This document shows, one piece after another, positions 13,874 to 23,295 of a DNA stretch of 64,000 nt. The DNA comes from Candidatus Hydrogenedentota bacterium. Its GTDB lineage: Bacteria; Hydrogenedentota; Hydrogenedentia; Hydrogenedentales; SLHB01. Each line of letters opens with the position of its first letter. The first letter of the stretch is position 1. Location: NCBI GenBank assembly GCA_045863295.1, contig BTWA01000004.1, forward strand, positions 1 to 64,000, in the 5' to 3' direction. Under the pieces are notes generated by a model. It saw nothing but the letters and a program-made list of their open reading frames with translations, was not told the DNA's origin and did no database searches. A program made the translations under genes and the position numbers.

Positions 13874-14302
13874 CTAACGCGACAGTCCCAGATACTCATC
13901 ATTGGAACGAGTCGGGTCCGAGGGCATCAGGGCCACCGGATACCACAAAACCGGGGGAACCAGACGCGTCATCATCTCCCGCGTCTCTCCGGTTGCCAAT
14001 GAGGCCGATTCAATTGTCATCTCCGCGCCGTGCGACGGTCCGCCGATGAAGGATCGGCCGCCGCTATCGAATAAGGACCTCGCCTGCCGCACCCGCTCGT
14101 GGTTGGCCGTATCGGATGCGTACCCGGATACGGTGTCGGGCTGTTGTGCCGCTTCCATGGCCAACAAGATGGCCATGGGCACCGTAAAACCGAGAATTGC
14201 GCATCGATACCGATCCGAAAGATCCAGTTTTTCCCACGACCTTACGGCGGTGGCAGCGAGCTGACGGAGATTACCCACTGACCTTGCCCCTGAAACGTAC
14301 AT
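13874..14302 (-). CDS. Hypothetical protein between fliE and fliF
   Basis: 142-aa co-oriented ORF filling most of a ~580-bp gap; one hydrophobic segment; weak RBS. Confidence 0.4.
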   Translation of the reverse strand: MYVSGARSVGNLRQLAATAVRSWEKLDLSDRYRCAILGFTVPMAILLAMEAAQQPDTVSGYASDTANHERVRQARSLFDSGGRSFIGGPSHGAEMTIESASLATGETREMMTRLVPPVLWYPVALMPSDPTRSNDEYLGLSR

Positions 14303-15141: not shown

Positions 15142-15537
15142 TCATCGGAGCGTGCTCAGCATGTTCCGGTATGCGCTGAATTGTTTGGCCAACAAACTAC
15201 CATATGTTGTGTATTTTCCGGTATTTTCCGCCAAATCAGCCATTTCCTGGTCTAAGTCGACCTTATTGTAGTCGTTCTTAGAAGAAAGCGCAAGACGTAA
15301 AAACGACGGATTCGCCACAGATGCATCCAGGTGCTTGGGCCGGGTCTTGCGGAGGCCGACGTGGCCCGAGCCCTGAATCTCGCTCTGTAACGTCGCCTGA
15401 AAATCCAGGCGCGTCGGGTTGTAGTTCGGCGTGTCGATGTTCGCAATGTTGTTGGCAATCAGCACATGATTCGCCTGTGCGGTCTTCATGCCTGCTACCA
15501 ACACACGACTTACGTCAATTCCGCCGAACGCAGACAA
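15142..15537 (-). CDS. flgB: Flagellar rod protein FlgB
   Basis: IANNIANIDTPNY, NDYNKVDLDQEM. TTG start at 15537 lies 9 nt from AAGGAGG. Confidence 0.92.
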   Translation of the reverse strand: MSAFGGIDVSRVLVAGMKTAQANHVLIANNIANIDTPNYNPTRLDFQATLQSEIQGSGHVGLRKTRPKHLDASVANPSFLRLALSSKNDYNKVDLDQEMADLAENTGKYTTYGSLLAKQFSAYRNMLSTLR

Positions 15538-15589: not shown

Positions 15590-15605
15590 AGCAACCCGCG
15601 TGCCG
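15590..15605 (-). promoter_or_regulatory. Sigma-54 (-24/-12) promoter of the flgB operon
   Basis: CGGCAC-GCGGG-TTGCT versus consensus TGGCAC-N5-TTGCW. Confidence 0.7.
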
Positions 15606-15719: not shown

Positions 15720-18700
15720 TTATGGTCCGGTGATGCGGCAATTGGGGAGGTCGTATTGCAGCAGGCTAAGCCCCTCGCGAGATACCCGGGTGCCCTGAAT
15801 GGTGAGCGTCGTCAGTCCGGTGAGGCGCTTGATCTCGTCCAAGCCCTGATTGGAAACCCCGCACTGGGTCAGCGTCAAGCTGGTGAGGCGGGGGAAGTGG
15901 CGAAGTACTGCGAGTCCCGCGTCGGCGATGTCCACCCCGGAGAGGCTCAAATACTCCATCTGCCGCAAGCGCTTGAGTTCCAAGAGGCTGGCGTCGGTCA
16001 TTTGCGCGTCGCGCACGGTAAGCTGCTGGATGCGGGTCAGGTTGCGCAACGCCCGGATGCCCTCGTCGGTGACGGTAGGGCTGTTGATAATGACGCCCTT
16101 CAGGCTGGCCATGCCTTCGAGCGATTTGAGGCTGGCGTCGGTCACGTTGCGGCCGTTCATCGCGATGTAGTCCAACCCGTTTTCGCCGAGCGCCACCAGC
16201 GGCGACAGATCCGCGGCAGCGTCGTAATCGACCTCCAGCCGGACATATTGGCCGGCTGGAATGGAGACGTTGCCCTGCGCGGAGCCCTTGTTCTGCCACG
16301 ACGCGGCCGGATTATCCCATGCACGTACCGTAACGGCGCCCAGGGTGCGCCCCCCAAAGGCAAGGGTGCGCGCGGGCGGCGCCGTGGGAGGCGCGGGCGG
16401 TTCAATCTCCGCATCCAGCTTCACCTTGGGTAACGCATCTGTCATGGCGAAATAGAAATCCTCGGACACCTTGCCTTCGGTCACCGAGAGGGCTTGGAGA
16501 GCGCCGAACGATTTCAGGGTCTCAATAGCGCCCAAGTTTGCGTAAGGTGCGCGCACATCGAGCACATTGACGTGCGGTGCAATGACTTTCAACACCTCCG
16601 GCGCGGCCGGTACGTCCCGATCAAGTGCAATCCGGATTAGCACATTGCGCGGCAATTCGACGATACCCTGGGCCGGCGCGTGCTGAATCCATTTCGTGGC
16701 GCCGTCCTGATCCACCGACTGCGTGTACACCATGCCGATGGATTGATCCGCTGGGAAAGTCAGGGTGAGCGGCGCGCTCGCGCCCGGGCTCACCGTATCC
16801 TGCACCGGCGATGACCCCAGTTTCTTCCCGCCCGCAAACTGCCACACGGCATAGCCGCCGCCGCCCATCGCGGCCAGGACAATCACCGTGGCAATCAATC
16901 GGACCACCGAAGGCCCGCGCGAGGTGCCGAAAACCTCCTGACGTTTCTGCAGGCGCTCGACCATTTTGTCCCGCTCGCCAAGCGCTTCGCGCAATTGCTC
17001 CACTTCGGCCTGGGCGGTCTTCAACTCGGAGGCCTTCTCGCGTTCAGTCTTGCGGAGGCTGTCGAGTTCATGCGTCAGGGCCGACTCAGATGCCGCCGCA
17101 GATTCCGCCTGCACACGAAGGTGACGCATCTCATCCTGCATGGACGTAATGGCTTGTTCGTTCTGCGAACTCCCGTGGGCGGCGTTCTTCAGCGCCATTT
17201 CCTGTTGGCTCAACGCCTGACGCAATGCCTTCACTTCCTGCTGGGCCAACTCCAGAGACCGCGTCTTGTTGGACTCATTCACGCGAAGGTGTTCCAATTC
17301 CTCCGCCAGTGCCAACTCAGACGCCGAAGCCGCCTCCGATCGCCGTTTGATCAATTCCAGTTCCGACTTCAATGACGAAATTACGCCTTCGCTCTCAGAA
17401 CTCGTTTGCGCGGCATCGGCCATTGCCTGTTCGCGTTGGCCAAGGGCCTGGCGCAACCGCTCCACTTCGGCCTGCGCCGCATGCAACTGGCCCGCCATCG
17501 CCTGCCCGTTCTCGCGCAATTGCTCCAGTTCCACCGCAAGGGCATGTTCGGAATGCGCGGCTTGATCGGCCCGGCCGCGAATGAGTTCCAGTTCCCCCTG
17601 CAACTGCGCCACTTTGGCTTCGTGCTCTTTGCTCTGTTTCGCCGCGGACGCCACCGCGTCTTCGCGATCGGAAAGGGCGCTCTTCAGGTTTTGCAATTCC
17701 GCCCGCGCGTCTTCCAGCGCTGTCGATTTCGCGTTTTCGCGCTGGCGCAATTGCTCCACTTCAGACGACAAATCCTGTTCGGATTGCGCGGCGTGTTCCG
17801 CCCGTTTTCGCAGGGCTTCCAATTCGTGCTCAAGTTTCTTAAGCGAATCTTCGGATTCGGAATTATCCCGGCTGGCGTCCCAAAGAGCCTTCTCTCGCTT
17901 CTCCAACTCCTTGTGCATCTGCTTCAATTCGGCGCGGGCTTGTTCCAGCGTGCGGCTCTTTAGTGTCTCCTTCGACCGCAACTCGTCCAATTCGTCCGCC
18001 AACTGCTTTTCCGAAGCCGAAGCATGGTCCGCCTGTTGGCGAAGACCTTCCACTTCCGTTCGCAATGACGTCAACGCTCGCTCGTTCTCCGCGTTTCGCG
18101 CTTCCGCCGAAGCAATGGCTTTCTCCCGGTCCACCAACGTAGTGCGAAGCGACTCCAATTCGTTGCGCGCGTCTTCCAACGCGGATGTTTTTTCTTTCTC
18201 GTTTGCCCGCAACCGGTGTAATTCGGCACTCAGCGCGGACTGGGCCGTCGATGCCGTGTCGGCCTCGGTGCGCAATGTATCGAGTTCGCCGCGGAGTGAC
18301 TCGATCAACGCTTCGCTTTCCTGGCTCCGCCGAGTGGCCTCCGCGATGGCCTGTTCGCTCGATTCCAGATTCTTGCGAAGGGCATCCAACTCGCCGCGCG
18401 CCCGCTCAAGATCTGTGGACTTCGATGTTTCCTGCGCGCGAAGCAGCTCGACTTCGTGCGCGAGTTGCTTTTCGGACTGCGTCATTTGATCCGCTTGGGA
18501 ACGCAGTTCAGTCAACTGCCCCCGTAGTGACGCGACCAACTCATCTTGTTCCGCCTTCTCGCGCGCCGCCACCGCAATCGCCGCCTCGCGCTGCACCAGT
18601 GTCTCCTGCAACGAATCCATCTGCGCCCGCGCCGATTCGAGTGCCGCCGCCTTGGCGCTTTCCTTTTTGCGCAGCGAATCCAGTTCTTCTTTCAGATCTT

Positions 18701-19148
18701 CGTGCGAGGCGTGTGCCTGTTCGGCTTTGCGATGTGCTTGCTGCAACTGAGACTGGAGATCGGTCAGCTTCTTTTCGAGTTCGGCCTTGTCGGCCTGCGC
18801 CGAAGCCGCGGCGACTACCTTGACCTTGATGGTCTTGGCGACGGTGTCTTGTTTCACCAGCAGCGCACGAAGCGACTCCACTTCGTCCGCGGCCATGCCC
18901 GCGGGCGAAATCGCCTCCAGATCCTCGCGCAGCCGGCGTGTATGACGCTCCAGAACCTCGCACGCCGCGCGCGTGTCGTCGTCCAATCCCAGATTTGCGT
19001 AACATTGCGCGCGCAACGCCAACAGCGGCAATGCCGTCGGAAAACGACGCGACAACTCATCCACCGCCGAAAGAGCCTCGATGTATTGGCTGGACTGGTA
19101 CAGAGTCTGCGCCTCCTGGAGACGCGCCGATGCTGTTTCCGGGCTCAT
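15720..19148 (-). CDS. TPR-like / 77-aa-repeat coiled-coil / TM / leucine-rich-repeat protein (1142 aa)
   Basis: ATG at 19148 after AGGAAAGGA; heptad repeats; TM LIATVIVLAAMGGGGYAVW; C-terminal LRRs such as VTDEGIRALRNLTRIQQL. Confidence 0.85.
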   Translation of the reverse strand: MSPETASARLQEAQTLYQSSQYIEALSAVDELSRRFPTALPLLALRAQCYANLGLDDDTRAACEVLERHTRRLREDLEAISPAGMAADEVESLRALLVKQDTVAKTIKVKVVAAASAQADKAELEKKLTDLQSQLQQAHRKAEQAHASHEDLKEELDSLRKKESAKAAALESARAQMDSLQETLVQREAAIAVAAREKAEQDELVASLRGQLTELRSQADQMTQSEKQLAHEVELLRAQETSKSTDLERARGELDALRKNLESSEQAIAEATRRSQESEALIESLRGELDTLRTEADTASTAQSALSAELHRLRANEKEKTSALEDARNELESLRTTLVDREKAIASAEARNAENERALTSLRTEVEGLRQQADHASASEKQLADELDELRSKETLKSRTLEQARAELKQMHKELEKREKALWDASRDNSESEDSLKKLEHELEALRKRAEHAAQSEQDLSSEVEQLRQRENAKSTALEDARAELQNLKSALSDREDAVASAAKQSKEHEAKVAQLQGELELIRGRADQAAHSEHALAVELEQLRENGQAMAGQLHAAQAEVERLRQALGQREQAMADAAQTSSESEGVISSLKSELELIKRRSEAASASELALAEELEHLRVNESNKTRSLELAQQEVKALRQALSQQEMALKNAAHGSSQNEQAITSMQDEMRHLRVQAESAAASESALTHELDSLRKTEREKASELKTAQAEVEQLREALGERDKMVERLQKRQEVFGTSRGPSVVRLIATVIVLAAMGGGGYAVWQFAGGKKLGSSPVQDTVSPGASAPLTLTFPADQSIGMVYTQSVDQDGATKWIQHAPAQGIVELPRNVLIRIALDRDVPAAPEVLKVIAPHVNVLDVRAPYANLGAIETLKSFGALQALSVTEGKVSEDFYFAMTDALPKVKLDAEIEPPAPPTAPPARTLAFGGRTLGAVTVRAWDNPAASWQNKGSAQGNVSIPAGQYVRLEVDYDAAADLSPLVALGENGLDYIAMNGRNVTDASLKSLEGMASLKGVIINSPTVTDEGIRALRNLTRIQQLTVRDAQMTDASLLELKRLRQMEYLSLSGVDIADAGLAVLRHFPRLTSLTLTQCGVSNQGLDEIKRLTGLTTLTIQGTRVSREGLSLLQYDLPNCRITGP
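16940..18686 (-). repeat. Intragenic tandem repeat, 231-bp (77-aa) period, 7 full units plus 1 partial
   Basis: Units begin E[LV]xxLR at 18686 and every 231 bp down to 17069, with no indels. Confidence 0.9.
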
Positions 19149-19690: not shown

Positions 19691-21433
19691 ATGCGCACAT
19701 TGAACCGGCGGAGTTTTTTAGAGGTAGCGGCAGCGTCGACGTTTGCTTTTCAGACCCGCGCGGCGACGGTAGGATCCAAGCCGGAAAAACCGGCTTTGCG
19801 AGTGCGGATGGATGCCCCAAACGAGGGGTTGTCCGCGCGGACGCTCGCAATTCTGAAAGATCGCATTGAGTACCGTTGCAGCGCGCCGGTCGTCACTGTG
19901 GATTCGAATGCGGAAGTCCTGCTGGCATTGGACAGTCAATTGCCGGCGGAATCCTTTCGATTCGACGAAGTAGAGCAAGCAGTGCGGATCGCGGGCGGCT
20001 CTCCGCAGGGCTTGTTGTACGGCGTAGGCAAGCTGCTTCGCACGAGTAATTACCGGGACGGCGCGCTTGAGATATCCCGGTGGCGAGGCCTGTCGACGCC
20101 ACGCGGTACACTGCGTGGAATGTATTTCGCCTCGCACTTCCACAACTGGTATCACCAGGCATCTCCGGCGGAAATCGCGCGATACATGGAAGACCTCGCG
20201 CTATGGGGTGTCAACGCCGTCAAAGTAATCTTTCCGTTGATCAACCTGCAGGGATGGGACGATCCCAAAGCGGACCCGGCGATGGAGTTTGTCCGTCAAT
20301 ACGCGCGTTCGGCACGCGAATTGGGCCTTCAATTCGCCACCGGGTTAAACAATGCCTTCTTCAGCGGCGCACCCAAAGAGATTCGCGCGACGCCCCTCCC
20401 GGACCCGCTGAAGCGGCGTGGCAACAGCGGCCACCCGATCTGTCCAAGCATCCCGGAGGGGCACGCATACATCATGGAAAATACGCGTGCTGTGTTCGAA
20501 AGACTGGCGGATGTTGGGCTGGATATCCTCGTGTTGTGGCCCTATGACGAAGGCGGCTGCGCATGCGACACGTGTGCTCCCTGGGGCAGCAACGGGTATT
20601 TGCGCATCTCGCGCGATCAGGTGGAACTCGGGCGGAAGTATTTCCCAAACCTAAAATCGGTGCTGAGCACCTGGATGTTCGATACGCCCGAGGAAGGCGA
20701 ATGGCAAGGTTTGACCCGCTATATGGATCCGGATGGTCAATGGATCGATTACATCCTTGCCGATGCGCACGAGGACTATCCCCGCTACCCGCTCGACCAC
20801 GGTGTGCCCGGAAAGCGGCCTCTGTTGAATTTCCCTGAGATCAGCATGTGGGGAAACAGTCCATGGGGCGGATACGGCGCGAATGTCTTACCCGCCCGGT
20901 ACCAACGCCTCTGGGATCAGGTGAAGCACGTCGTGGAGGGAGGTTTCCCGTACAGCGAAGGCATTTACGAAGACATGCATAAAGCGATTGTGGCGCAATT
21001 CTATTGGGACCTCGATCGCACGGCCCTGGATACGTTGCGGGAATATATCGCTTACGAATTCGGGGTGTCTCGCGCCGAGACGGTAAACGATCTTCTTGAA
21101 ATGATCGCGCTGCTGGAGCAGGCCTCGTCGAACAGTTATCAGAAGAATCCCGTGAACAAAGACGGCGTTGTTCGCGCGGCCGGATTGGCCGAAGACATCC
21201 AGCAACATCTGCCGGATTGGGGACGGCAAAATTGGCGTTGGGAAATTCTGTATCTTCGCGCGGTCATTGACCGGGAACGATTCGCGGGCGGCGGCATCGA
21301 TTCGCCCGCCGCCCAAACGGCCATGCTTCGCCTCGTGGACCTTTACCACTGCGAACTTGATACCGAGGATCCGTACCACCACCGCGTGCGCCCTCCCCTG
21401 AAAAGCGCCATCGACCGCCAGGGCCGCAAGTAA
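19691..21433 (+). CDS. Tat-exported glycoside hydrolase-like protein (GH20/GH67-type N-terminal domain plus TIM barrel)
   Basis: Tat motif NRRSFL; 'ESFRF...IAGGSPQGLLYGVGKLLR'; WPYDEGGC. Confidence 0.65.
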   Translation: MRTLNRRSFLEVAAASTFAFQTRAATVGSKPEKPALRVRMDAPNEGLSARTLAILKDRIEYRCSAPVVTVDSNAEVLLALDSQLPAESFRFDEVEQAVRIAGGSPQGLLYGVGKLLRTSNYRDGALEISRWRGLSTPRGTLRGMYFASHFHNWYHQASPAEIARYMEDLALWGVNAVKVIFPLINLQGWDDPKADPAMEFVRQYARSARELGLQFATGLNNAFFSGAPKEIRATPLPDPLKRRGNSGHPICPSIPEGHAYIMENTRAVFERLADVGLDILVLWPYDEGGCACDTCAPWGSNGYLRISRDQVELGRKYFPNLKSVLSTWMFDTPEEGEWQGLTRYMDPDGQWIDYILADAHEDYPRYPLDHGVPGKRPLLNFPEISMWGNSPWGGYGANVLPARYQRLWDQVKHVVEGGFPYSEGIYEDMHKAIVAQFYWDLDRTALDTLREYIAYEFGVSRAETVNDLLEMIALLEQASSNSYQKNPVNKDGVVRAAGLAEDIQQHLPDWGRQNWRWEILYLRAVIDRERFAGGGIDSPAAQTAMLRLVDLYHCELDTEDPYHHRVRPPLKSAIDRQGRK

Positions 21434-21768: not shown

Positions 21769-23295
21769 TTGAGTGAGAAGGAAGCCACATTGGTCGTGAC
21801 CTGCTCGTGCGGGCAAAAGATGAAAGTTGCCGAGGAAGCCCGGGGCAAGTCGATCAAGTGTTTGCGATGCGGAGCGGCGGTGCCGGTGGATGCGGCGCAC
21901 CAAGCCGTGGCAAGCGCGACGTCAGCCAAGAGTGGCGCCGCGCATCAATGGAGCCGGGTAGTTTCGGTATTAACCGAAGAAGGCCTGGTAAACGACGCGC
22001 AATTGGGCGAGGCGCTGGGCAAGTGCGTTCCGGAATCGGTCGGACTGTTTCAGGCCTTGGTGGACCTGGGCCACCTCGACGCGGCGGCCTTTCATCAGTC
22101 CGCGTCGAAGCAACACGGCATCGCGAGCATTGACATTGCGAATTACCAGGTGGCCAAGGATTTGCTCGCGCTGGTGCCCTCGAGTTTCGCCAGGGAACGG
22201 TTGGTTGTGCCGATTGACAAGCTTGGCCGCCTGTTGACCGTGGGAATGGCGTGTCCCCTGGATCAGGGCAGCCTCGAAGAACTGACTGCATCCACAGGGC
22301 TGCGCGTGAAACCCATGCTCTGTAAGTACGAAGATCTGGTTTCGGCTTTGCACAAGTACTATCCCGAATCCGCGCTGGAAAAGGAACAGTCGGTCCTCTC
22401 GTTGGAGACGTTCGGGTTGGCGCCCGTACCCGACAAGAAGAAGCCGGCCGCACCCGAAGTCAAAGCCGTCGCGAAACCCGGCGAAGCAGAGGCGGGGATA
22501 CGCCAGATTTCCGCGTTGCCGATAGCGCCCGATACGCTGGCCAGACTGGAAGCGGCGGAACGGGACGGTCAAACCGGTGTGCGTCGTATCGTTCATATCG
22601 TGCAACAAGATCCGGCGCTGGCCTTTGTACTGGTCGCTTACGCAAATCTGCCTGTGTTCGGCTCGCCGGGGAAGATGGCCGGACTGACGGCCGCCGTCAC
22701 GCTACTGGGTGCGGAAGGCGTCAAAACGGTTGCCCGGTCAGCGGGGAATTCCGATGAACTCGGCGACGCATGGGACTGGCCTTCGTTTGTAAAACGCGGC
22801 ACCTTCGCAGCGTGCGCGGCCGCCGAGCTGGCTTCGGACGGAGGCAAAATGGATCCGGATTCGGCTTGCATGGGCGGACTCGTGCATGAGACCGGCCGGC
22901 TCGCGCTTGCAATGGTAATGGGGGATCGGTTTCAATCCGCGCCTGAATCCATGGATCACGCGGCGCTGTGCGCCACGGAGGATCAGTTGTATGCGTTGAA
23001 TCACGGCCAGGCGGGGTATCTGCTGGCGCAGCGGTGGGGATTTCCGAACGGTCTCCCCGAAGCGATCCGGTTTCACGGAAATCCGGCAGCCACAAAAGAG
23101 TCGCGCGATTTCGTGAATCTGGTGGCGCTGGCTGCCGCGATGGCGGAAGCTTTCCTTGCGCAAGGGGAACAACGTACCGCGGCGCTGAAACGATGTGAGC
23201 CGCTATTGGCGCCGTCCGGAGCGGAGACGCGCGACATCCGCCTGCTGTTCGATCGGTCGATGGCGGCCTACGCGCGGGTGACCGAAGGAAACTGA
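21769..23295 (+). CDS. Zn-ribbon + MshEN/T2SSE-N + HDOD domain protein
   Basis: CSCG...CLRCG; 'VPIDKLGRLLTVGMACPLD'; HDOD motifs QDPALA..AN, GLVHETGRL, NHGQAG.LLAQRWGFP, IRFH. Confidence 0.8.
   Translation: MSEKEATLVVTCSCGQKMKVAEEARGKSIKCLRCGAAVPVDAAHQAVASATSAKSGAAHQWSRVVSVLTEEGLVNDAQLGEALGKCVPESVGLFQALVDLGHLDAAAFHQSASKQHGIASIDIANYQVAKDLLALVPSSFARERLVVPIDKLGRLLTVGMACPLDQGSLEELTASTGLRVKPMLCKYEDLVSALHKYYPESALEKEQSVLSLETFGLAPVPDKKKPAAPEVKAVAKPGEAEAGIRQISALPIAPDTLARLEAAERDGQTGVRRIVHIVQQDPALAFVLVAYANLPVFGSPGKMAGLTAAVTLLGAEGVKTVARSAGNSDELGDAWDWPSFVKRGTFAACAAAELASDGGKMDPDSACMGGLVHETGRLALAMVMGDRFQSAPESMDHAALCATEDQLYALNHGQAGYLLAQRWGFPNGLPEAIRFHGNPAATKESRDFVNLVALAAAMAEAFLAQGEQRTAALKRCEPLLAPSGAETRDIRLLFDRSMAAYARVTEGN

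What the first reader, a model, noticed from the sequence alone, without database searches (positions are those of the whole stretch)
15720..19148. Giant membrane-anchored rod protein with exact 77-aa (11-heptad) repeats heads the flagellar cluster
Seen: an N-terminal TPR-like pair, then 7 full and 1 partial repeats with an indel-free 231-bp period (consensus E[LV]xxLRxxExxKxxxLxxAxxE...S[EQ]xxL), a single TM, then LRR domains. There is no signal peptide. The gene is co-oriented and 182 bp upstream of flgB. Known: coiled coils rise about 0.15 nm per residue. Inference: about 600 residues give a cytoplasmic rod of roughly 90 nm. The strict super-repeat suggests in-register filament assembly, a ruler or a polar scaffold linked to a periplasmic LRR. 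I do not recognise this architecture.
Basis: partly seen in the sequence, partly recalled or inferred. Interest (0 to 1): 0.7.

Follow-up and report, generated by a model that had tools for sequence, protein, structure and literature searches.

The report
Membrane-anchored rod with dedicated adaptor partner
This is a real, unnamed bacterial membrane protein with a roughly 100-nanometre rod built from 77-residue units; it has nothing to do with the flagellar genes beside it, but is kept and lost together with one small adaptor protein, which suggests a new two-part scaffold for organising the cell.

Summary
Window 15720-19148(-) encodes a 1142-aa protein with a TPR-like head, 7 full and 1 partial 77-residue units, one transmembrane helix and two periplasmic beta-cap/LRR modules. 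The units are pure heptads, 34-49% identical to each other, with no indels. The flagellar reading fails. Only this genome, of 72, has flgB/flgC/fliF in the fetched flank. flgB has its own sigma-54-type promoter (35 of 35 loci). 15 of 71 rod-bearing genomes lack FliG, and 28 flagellated genomes of the same family lack the rod. The family appears confined to the window's phylum (a homologue is labelled Ca. Hydrogenedentota); 5-13 units are detected, 7 most often. Its true partner is a divergently transcribed Zn-ribbon-MshEN-HDOD gene (window 21769-23295), adjacent in 51 of 72 genomes. That partner clade is present in 71 of 71 rod genomes, even where unlinked, and in 1 of 34 rod-less ones. A complex prediction gives weak support (0.55; best control 0.00). 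Best reading: an inverted FimV/HubP-like landmark that holds this adaptor away from the membrane, plausibly serving pilus machinery. That last step is inferred, and the partner's c-di-GMP motif is degenerate.

The parts
18900..19148 (-). N-terminal TPR-like head and helical hairpin (residues 1-83), cytoplasmic; likely docking site for the partner
   Evidence: Model helices 3-18, 22-35, 40-52, 56-83; weak TPR Foldseek hits; TPR-type Pfam hits in 2-3 of 39 members per family; residues 1-160 used in complex prediction
18690..18890 (-). Lead-in helix (residues 87-153), continuous with the rod
17073..18689 (-). Seven full 77-residue (231-bp, 11-heptad) coiled-coil units, residues 154-692; net charge -32
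16944..17072 (-). Partial eighth unit (residues 693-735)
16839..16904 (-). Single transmembrane helix (about residues 749-770), N-in/C-out
   Evidence: net charge +2.9 before vs +0.3 after the helix, higher before in 57 of 68 homologues; one TM in 67 of 68
16413..16775 (-). Periplasmic module A: beta-rich cap plus short LRR; absent in some orthologues
15723..16376 (-). Periplasmic module B: beta-rich cap plus LRR array. The same cap lies near the N-terminus, behind signal-peptide-like leaders, in other proteins and C-terminal of a BlaR1-type M56 domain in P0005
15591..15604 (-). Sigma-54-type -24/-12 promoter motif that starts the flagellar operon at flgB, separating it from the rod gene
   Evidence: Only match in the window (about 1 expected by chance somewhere in it); same motif upstream of flgB in 35 of 35 loci and 0 on the opposite strand
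21769..23295 (+). Divergent partner gene: Zn-ribbon + MshEN + HDOD, 508 aa; c-di-GMP motif degenerate in this copy
19691..21433 (+). 580-aa gene without Pfam match that lies between rod and partner in this genome only; elsewhere the gap is 101-667 bp

Best explanation
A two-protein landmark module of this phylum. SHOWN BY SEQUENCE OR COMPUTATION: a type II inner-membrane protein whose cytoplasmic part is a long, pure-heptad coiled coil of 77-residue units capped by a TPR-like head, and whose periplasmic part is an exported-type beta-cap/LRR module. It is kept and lost together with one clade of Zn-ribbon-MshEN-HDOD proteins. INFERRED: the rod forms a parallel in-register homo-oligomer, because the conserved positions are the core and its flanks, with g-e' E/R pairs and polar core residues that fix the register. 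The LRRs grip a periplasmic or envelope partner and so fix the anchor's place. The head binds the MshEN-HDOD protein, a probably non-catalytic adaptor, about 100 nm into the cytoplasm. MORE SPECULATIVE: the client is the type IVa pilus / PilB-MshEN network, making this an inverted, non-homologous counterpart of FimV/HubP and FrzS-SgmX. Odds by step: functional pair about 0.85; direct binding about 0.6; landmark or scaffold role about 0.55; pilus as client about 0.35.
For: Divergent partner in 51 of 72 genomes, in 12 of the 13 families sampled, and in 47 of 61 loci with an intact 5' end and 2 kb or more upstream. On trees of MshEN-HDOD proteins the adjacent genes form one clade (66 of 120 sequences, support 0.994, Zn ribbon excluded; 72 of 141, support 0.93). 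All 71 verified rod genomes have an adjacent or clade gene, including 13 where 2 kb or more upstream shows no partner, against 1 of 34 rod-less genomes (G013). Rod-less genomes fall in about nine separate places on a FliF+FliG tree (counted by eye), some in 10-80-contig assemblies. Other frequent neighbours are not co-lost: pilM 100 of 109, SPASM gene 100 of 109. Complex prediction of 2x rod 1-160 with the partner: score 0.55, best of 3 controls 0.00; runs share at least 94% of contacts; partner pLDDT at least 74. The mark was reached by 116 of 157 solved and 2 of 215 mismatched pairs, but at 0.60 or under by only 18 solved and both mismatches, so this is weak support. Conservation over 561 units: a 0.67, d 0.78, e 0.56, g 0.57 vs b 0.35, c 0.32, f 0.22. 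Pilus pointers: pilM in the fetched flank of 17 of 72 genomes in 5 families; the partner's MshEN matches the PilB N-terminus; some soluble proteins fuse a recognisable 77-unit to a C-terminal MshEN domain (L043 34/77, L048 29/77 identity to consensus). FimV/HubP share the layout periplasmic binder - TM - long acidic cytoplasmic region - TPR (PMC12918733, abstract). The FrzS coiled coil suffices for polar localisation and FrzS recruits the TPR protein SgmX (PMC11580455, passages).
Against: No localisation, binding or phenotype data exist here. The complex score lies in the band that the tool calls more often wrong than right without a prior, the job differed from its calibration, and no interface was given. 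pilM is retained in rod-less genomes, so pili do not need the rod. The riboflavin/nusB operon flanks the gene more often (27 of 72) than pilM does (17 of 72, 10 of them one family), so pilM adjacency may be inherited gene order. The partner's c-di-GMP motif is degenerate: first-motif Arg 4 of 39, Gly 22 of 39 (Val in this window), second-motif Gly 0 of 39, and mutating the first Gly abolishes binding in V. cholerae MshEN (PMC5013675, passages). G013 keeps the partner without a rod. Two partial sequences from rod-less genomes (G078, G067) fell outside the clade but scored about equally against in-clade and out-of-clade profiles. 30 of 91 matches in the 36 initially rod-less genomes covered one domain only and were not placed. 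Kin are not independent, and many genomes are fragmented. This genome's own coiled-coil-MshEN protein has no recognisable 77-unit (19/77).
Confidence: 0.45

Rival explanations
1. A structural tether or cytoskeletal element unrelated to pili. The membrane-anchored rod bundles or spans about 100 nm to shape the cell, space membranes or hold the nucleoid, and the MshEN-HDOD protein regulates or cross-links it.
For: Length and pure-heptad build; length tolerance from 743 to 1660 residues; the co-loss data fit equally; weak sub-threshold Pfam likeness to crescentin rod and tropomyosin, which is compositional.
Against: No cell-division, shape or partition gene was labelled or noticed among the conserved neighbours. 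It is repeatedly lost within one family. An MshEN domain points to pilus/secretion or c-di-GMP circuits.
Confidence: 0.25
2. A transmembrane receptor. The periplasmic LRRs bind a ligand, and clustering or a register shift travels along the coiled coil to release or activate the HDOD adaptor, which acts like SadB on a downstream regulator.
For: The beta-cap/LRR module also sits on a BlaR1-type protein and on secreted-type proteins. Short TPR-TM-cap/LRR proteins without a rod exist in 7 of the loci inspected. The core has polar and small residues at conserved positions. An HDOD domain serves in a ligand-independent adaptor in SadB (PMC12075610, passages).
Against: About 650 to over 1500 residues of helix, with variable unit number and some long insertions, is a poor conformational relay (inference). 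No kinase, cyclase or DNA-binding output was found in either protein.
Confidence: 0.18
3. A tropomyosin-like ruler or lattice binder: the 11.4-nm unit matches a periodic polymer, and the rod binds along it once per unit.
For: 464 of 489 unit spacings are exactly 77 and 13 are 154. 25 of 64 homologues have 743-752 residues before the TM.
Against: The outward-facing b, c and f positions are the least conserved (0.35, 0.32, 0.22), apart from a general acidic bias. The total length is not fixed.
Confidence: 0.07
4. A flagellar accessory or polar scaffold co-transcribed with flgB.
For: Co-oriented, 182 bp upstream of flgB in this genome; no terminator-like site was found in the gap.
Against: Flagellar gene in the flank in 1 of 72 genomes. 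In the three relatives where rod and fliF share a contig they are 0.28-2.4 Mb apart. flgB has its own sigma-54 motif in 35 of 35 loci with varying upstream genes. Family f11 has the rod in 14 of 17 but FliG in 2 of 17, and flagellin in 0 of 5 rod-bearing f11 genomes tested. 28 FliG-positive genomes of family f1 lack the rod.
Confidence: 0.03

Closest known systems
FimV / HubP polar landmark proteins (gammaproteobacteria)
   Same: Single-pass inner-membrane protein with a periplasmic binding module, a long acidic cytoplasmic region and a terminal TPR that recruits clients (PMC12918733, abstract).
   Different: Opposite polarity (TPR at the N-terminus, periplasmic part C-terminal); LRR modules instead of LysM/Ig; the cytoplasmic part is a strictly periodic coiled coil; no FimV family match.
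FrzS-SgmX(-SopA) type IVa pilus regulators of Myxococcus xanthus
   Same: A large coiled coil as polar beacon working with a TPR protein upstream of PilB (PMC11580455, passages).
   Different: FrzS has an N-terminal pseudo-receiver domain; here a TPR-like head, the rod, a TM anchor and periplasmic LRRs are one chain; no receiver match.
Crescentin, FilP, Scy and other bacterial coiled-coil-rich filament proteins
   Same: Long repetitive coiled coil, possible self-assembly (search listings only; Scy's repeat structure is recalled).
   Different: This protein has a TM anchor and periplasmic domains; Rod_CreS 22 bits vs cut-off 100; uninterrupted 11-heptad unit.
MshEN c-di-GMP receptors and SadB-type HDOD adaptors (for the partner)
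   Same: Pfam MshEN and HDOD above cut-off; one orthologue passes the NCBIfam c-di-GMP motif model (52.7 vs 38).
   Different: Extra Zn ribbon, no ATPase; second binding motif degenerate in all 39 aligned and the first degenerate here. The MshEN+HDOD text search listed only 2 papers, which I did not open.

Membership tests
FimV/HubP | Periplasmic LysM domain | tested here: not met
   No LysM in Pfam scan; the periplasmic part models as beta-cap/LRR
FimV/HubP | Single TM with long acidic cytoplasmic region | tested here: met
   net charge -32 over 539 residues
FimV/HubP | C-terminal FimV TPR domain | tested here: not met
   The TPR-like part is N-terminal; no FimV model among NCBIfam hits; TIGR03504 0 of 5 genomes, though the control set held no strong positive
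FimV/HubP | Polar localisation and client recruitment | not testable with these tools
   Needs imaging; only a weak complex prediction
Flagellar operon component | Linkage to and co-occurrence with flagellar genes | tested here: not met
Crescentin / IF-like proteins | Family profile score; no transmembrane helix (recalled) | tested here: not met
   Rod_CreS 22.2 bits vs 100; TM present
Crescentin / IF-like proteins | Self-assembly into filaments | not testable with these tools
FrzS/AglZ-type coiled-coil regulators | N-terminal (pseudo-)receiver domain | tested here: not met
   No receiver match; all-helical head
SMC/Rad50, HmpF | Curated family cut-offs; ATPase heads for SMC | tested here: not met
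   SMC 73 vs 567 bits, HmpF 19.5 vs 200, matches only within the coil
MshEN c-di-GMP receptor (partner gene) | Two tandem RLGxxLxxxGLxxxxxLxxxLxxQ-type motifs | tested here: not met
   Window copy lacks the first-motif Gly; second-motif Gly 0 of 39; no NF053729 hit for the window copy, hit for one orthologue
MshEN c-di-GMP receptor (partner gene) | MshEN fold/profile | tested here: met
   PF05157 58.5 bits vs 23.1

The most novel reading that the evidence does not exclude
The 77-residue unit is a modular, register-coded zipper. Membrane-anchored rods, and soluble proteins that fuse the same unit to an MshEN domain, assemble in register or staggered by whole units into a phylum-specific mast or filament about 100-200 nm long. 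This structure ties a periplasmic LRR anchor to MshEN adaptors deep in the cytoplasm: an undescribed trans-envelope cytoskeleton that positions pilus motors or c-di-GMP signalling at a tunable distance set by unit number.
Probability: 0.12. Interest if true: 0.82.

Novelty: new variant of a known kind. Interest (0 to 1): 0.52.

Why it matters
Landmark proteins that organise bacterial cells are known from a few model lineages. This is an unnamed family, present in about two thirds of the sampled genomes of a little-studied phylum, that seems to have reached a FimV/HubP-like layout independently, with inverted polarity and an unusually regular 11-heptad rod. It comes with a specific partner identified by gene order, co-loss and a weak complex prediction, so the next experiment is concrete: purify the head and the partner. 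It also assigns a likely context to an MshEN-HDOD fusion. The 561 natural units define which polar core residues a 600-residue coiled coil conserves, which is useful for coiled-coil design.

Tried and rejected
Flagellar link: rejected. Hendecad reading of 77 = 7 x 11: rejected, period 3.50. Pfam ATG16 hit above its cut-off (47.2 vs 33.7, no stretch passing alone) and SMC/Rad50/tropomyosin hits: compositional coiled-coil matches. The solved-structure search with the repeat profile gave 3 weak coiled coils, E 0.0018 or worse. Fold searches of the periplasmic part gave generic LRR proteins only; the common rows spanned residues 141-358, so module A and the cap were barely tested and no claim of a new fold is made. 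The ESM Atlas gave only generic LRR clusters or unrelated short clusters. The search for related loci found one unrelated weak coiled coil, so no organism title came from it. The tree of the 110-residue cap/LRR module (85 of 96 sequences) was unresolved, so whether the short TPR-TM-LRR proteins are rod-deleted orthologues or paralogues is open. The heptad-shuffle null for 77-unit homology did not discriminate (most unrelated coils also beat it), so I relied on score and identity instead. A Fisher test was computed but is not used because kin are not independent. SPASM and pilM neighbours were tested as partners and are not co-lost. No RNA holder listed; the two low-share runs laid were uninformative. 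Earlier findings of the scan: nothing shown. G021 was labelled rod-positive; its hit is a coiled-coil-MshEN protein, so I count it rod-less. G067 was treated likewise (no TM in the stretch seen).
Full report
OBSERVATION. Window 15720-19148(-) translates to 1142 aa. The start is supported by a ribosome site and by orthologue N-termini. Self-identity is 0.41, 0.40 and 0.38 at lags 77, 154 and 231, against a maximum of 0.17 in 200 shuffles. Seven full units span residues 154-692 without indels, and a partial unit follows. Units are 34-49% identical to each other, so 'exact' means length only. The hydrophobic period is 3.50: 11 heptads. There is one hydrophobic helix near 749-770 and none at the N-terminus. 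flgB begins at 15537, 182 bp downstream (read).

ANATOMY. AlphaFold on a 39-row alignment models residues 1-83 as short paired helices plus a hairpin, then a single helix from residue 87 onward (pLDDT 95). Foldseek gives only weak TPR hits (best E 6.8e-3). The C-terminal 358 residues model as two tandem beta-cap + LRR modules (pLDDT 92) and match generic LRR structures. The same cap occurs near the N-terminus of other proteins behind signal-peptide-like leaders (judged by eye), and downstream of a BlaR1-type M56 domain, so it is an exported module. Charge around the TM is +2.9 before and +0.3 after, higher before in 57 of 68 homologues with 6 ties, and 67 of 68 have one TM. The rod is therefore cytoplasmic and the LRRs periplasmic (inferred). 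Residues 87-735 would span about 96 nm (rise per residue recalled).

FAMILY. The gene is single-copy in its genome. No curated family passes its cut-off except a compositional ATG16 hit. A repeat profile hit 73 of 109 phylum genomes at 85% completeness or more. On inspection 71 hold the full gene, and two hits (G021, G067) are other coiled coils. Three more genomes hold its C-terminal part in broken assemblies and one an 81-residue tail. One homologue is labelled Candidatus Hydrogenedentota. Among 1.84 billion representatives 14 proteins scored E 1e-30 or better; those with recognisable units have the family's architecture or are fragments of it, and the rest are generic coiled coils. Across 73 loci from 72 genomes (two of them below the 85% cut) 561 units were found. 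464 of 489 spacings are 77 and 13 are 154; the other 12 are 151 (5), 447 (2), 70, 74, 134, 158 and 222. Detected unit number is 7 in 29 loci and 5-13 in nearly all others; one orthologue (G017) has none. The N-terminus-to-TM length is 743-752 in 25 of 64 and reaches 1660. Conservation sits on the coiled-coil core and flanks (a 0.67, d 0.78, e 0.56, g 0.57), not the outer face (b 0.35, c 0.32, f 0.22). It includes three E-L-x-x-L-R-type motifs per unit and charged or small core residues. This pattern fits register-specific parallel self-association better than a repeated external binding site (inference).

NOT FLAGELLAR. Only this genome of 72 has fliF, flgB or flgC in the fetched flank. Where rod and fliF share a contig in relatives (G004, G035, G039) they are 0.28-2.4 Mb apart. 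The gap before flgB holds a sigma-54-type motif at 15591-15604, the only match in the window. The same motif lies upstream of flgB in 35 of 35 loci with at least 150 bp upstream, never on the opposite strand, and the gene upstream varies. FliG was found in 90 of 109 genomes. 15 of the 71 rod genomes lack it, 12 of them in one family (rod 14 of 17, FliG 2 of 17), and 0 of 5 of those tested have flagellin. Conversely, 28 of the 29 rod-less genomes of the window's family have FliG.

THE REAL PARTNER. The conserved neighbour is a divergently transcribed Zn-ribbon-MshEN-HDOD gene, in this window at 21769-23295 behind an inserted 580-aa gene. It is adjacent in 51 of 72 genomes, with start-to-start gaps of 101-667 bp in the other 50, and in 12 of 13 families. 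MshEN-HDOD proteins are near-universal in the phylum (104 of 109), so I separated paralogues on trees. The rod-adjacent genes form one clade (66 of 120 sequences, support 0.994, with the Zn ribbon cut away; 72 of 141, support 0.93, with a different alignment). All 71 rod genomes have an adjacent or clade gene. That includes 13 in which at least 2 kb upstream of the rod shows no partner, so retention is not just linkage. Of 34 genomes with no trace of the rod, one (G013, 650 contigs) has a clade gene. G049, also in the clade, has a rod tail at a contig edge. Of the 91 matches in the 36 initially rod-less genomes I fetched 61 for the trees; the 30 left out cover a single domain. Two partial sequences (G078, G067) lay outside the clade but were ambiguous by profile score. 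On a FliF+FliG tree of 41 genomes the rod-less ones fall in about nine places (counted by eye, some nodes weak, G021 relabelled), several from assemblies of 10-80 contigs. Other frequent neighbours act as negative controls and persist without the rod: pilM 100 of 109 and a SPASM-domain gene 100 of 109.

BINDING. Two copies of rod residues 1-160 with the partner scored 0.55 (0.54, 0.55, 0.59), best of 3 controls 0.00, runs agreeing in at least 94% of contacts, partner pLDDT at least 74. In the tool's calibration 116 of 157 solved and 2 of 215 mismatched pairs reached the mark, but only 18 solved pairs and both mismatches did so at 0.60 or under. This is weak support; it counts mainly because the pair was predicted beforehand from gene order and co-occurrence.

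WHAT THE PARTNER IS. Its MshEN domain resembles the PilB N-terminus, but the c-di-GMP motif is worn. First-motif Arg is present in 4 of 39, first-motif Gly in 22 of 39 (not in this window), and second-motif Gly in 0 of 39. In V. cholerae MshEN two motifs cooperate and loss of the first Gly abolishes binding (PMC5013675, passages). The HD dyad is also mostly lost (His 20 of 39, Asp 5 of 39). SadB shows that an HDOD protein can act as a ligand-independent adaptor (PMC12075610, passages). I read the partner as an adaptor, with nucleotide sensing at most in some lineages.

POINTERS TO THE CLIENT. pilM lies in the fetched flank in 17 of 72 genomes from 5 families, followed by pilN/O/P and, where checked, a secretin. 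Soluble proteins exist that end in MshEN and, in some cases, carry a recognisable 77-unit (L043 34 of 77 and L048 29 of 77 identical to the consensus, against 15-21 for unrelated coils). A related coiled-coil-MshEN gene without a clear unit lies directly downstream of the rod gene in 4 genomes of one genus. Against a pilus link: the riboflavin/nusB operon flanks the gene more often (27 of 72), pili genes persist without the rod, and this genome's own coiled-coil-MshEN protein has no clear unit.

MECHANISM. Most likely the rod self-associates in parallel and in register. Its LRRs bind an envelope partner, and its head holds the MshEN-HDOD adaptor about 100 nm inside the cell, marking a site for downstream machinery, plausibly type IVa pili. 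Architecture and co-inheritance are shown; oligomer state, binding, localisation and client are inferred, in falling order of confidence. The rivals are a pilus-independent structural tether (0.25), a transmembrane receptor (0.18), a lattice ruler (0.07) and a flagellar accessory (0.03).

COMPARISON. It works most like FimV/HubP: periplasmic binder, TM, long acidic cytoplasmic region, TPR (PMC12918733, abstract and outline). It also recalls the FrzS coiled coil acting with the TPR protein SgmX (PMC11580455, passages). It is a member of neither: no LysM, inverted polarity, no receiver domain, no family hit. For crescentin, FilP and Scy I saw search listings only. I also opened PMC13580157 (abstract) and bioRxiv 10.1101/2022.07.08.499144 (passages); neither bore on the claims.

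NOVELTY. No description turned up in these searches: Hydrogenedentes + coiled-coil (2 papers listed); 77-residue-repeat phrases (none among 25 listed); MshEN + HDOD (2 listed, not opened); MshEN + coiled-coil + type IV pili + polar (4 listed); phylum names + motility terms. The library omits most subscription papers, and I read no supplements; domain-architecture tables in MshEN papers could list the partner. Verdict: real, not flagellar, an undescribed phylum-level rod-adaptor module, and a new variant of the membrane-anchored landmark kind. Interest 0.52.

Noticed in passing
window 15591-15604 (-); L145-L184: A sigma-54-type promoter motif precedes flgB in 35 of 35 loci with enough upstream DNA, so the flagellar basal-body operon of this phylum looks sigma-54-driven; in two relatives an NtrC-like C-terminus (by eye) lies just upstream.
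   Followed up: yes
L026:4816-5583 (+) with L026:5688-6080 (-); own genome C6:203578-204267: A 250-aa SPASM-domain protein that by eye lacks the radical-SAM CxxxCxxC motif is single-copy in 100 of 109 genomes and often converges on a Nif11-domain peptide gene next to the partner gene; possibly a degenerate or split peptide-modifying system.
   Followed up: partly
L045:7442-9178, L270, L137-L139, L143, L144: Short TPR - linker - TM - beta-cap/LRR proteins without the rod occur in rod-less genomes (G013, G021, G008, G104, G113, G112, G003); their relation to the rod family is unresolved.
   Followed up: partly
L043:6622-9126, L048:8012-11839, L022:11728-13077, L100:6115-7602; P0032, P0033, P0037: A family of soluble proteins with a shared N-terminal helix, a variable coiled coil (some with 77-units) and a C-terminal MshEN domain; its distribution was not surveyed.
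   Followed up: partly
L036:7461-12199 (G039): The rod gene is split into two overlapping frames (1057 + 535 aa) in a single-contig genome, while three close relatives have an intact 1578-1579-aa gene; sequencing error or recent frameshift.
   Followed up: no
L041:7171-10797 (G017): Orthologue with head, coil, TM and both LRR modules but no detectable 77-residue units.
   Followed up: partly
window 19691-21433 (+): 580-aa protein with a twin-arginine-like leader (by eye) and no Pfam match, inserted between rod and partner in this genome only.
   Followed up: partly
window 13874-14302 (-): 142-aa ORF between fliE and fliF with no Pfam match; may not be a gene.
   Followed up: no
P0024, P0026, P0027, P0039, P0051, P0058: Apparently unrelated coiled-coil proteins also show a 77-residue period (self-identity 0.17-0.33) but score far below true units; 11 heptads may be a recurrent duplication unit.
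   Followed up: partly
G000 whole genome: 12 MshEN-domain proteins, 7 with a PilB/GspE-type P-loop, one apparently fused to a protein kinase (by eye).
   Followed up: partly
family f11 genomes: FliG was found in only 2 of 17 genomes, both of one genus, while pilM was found in 15 of 17: a largely non-flagellated, probably piliated family.
   Followed up: partly
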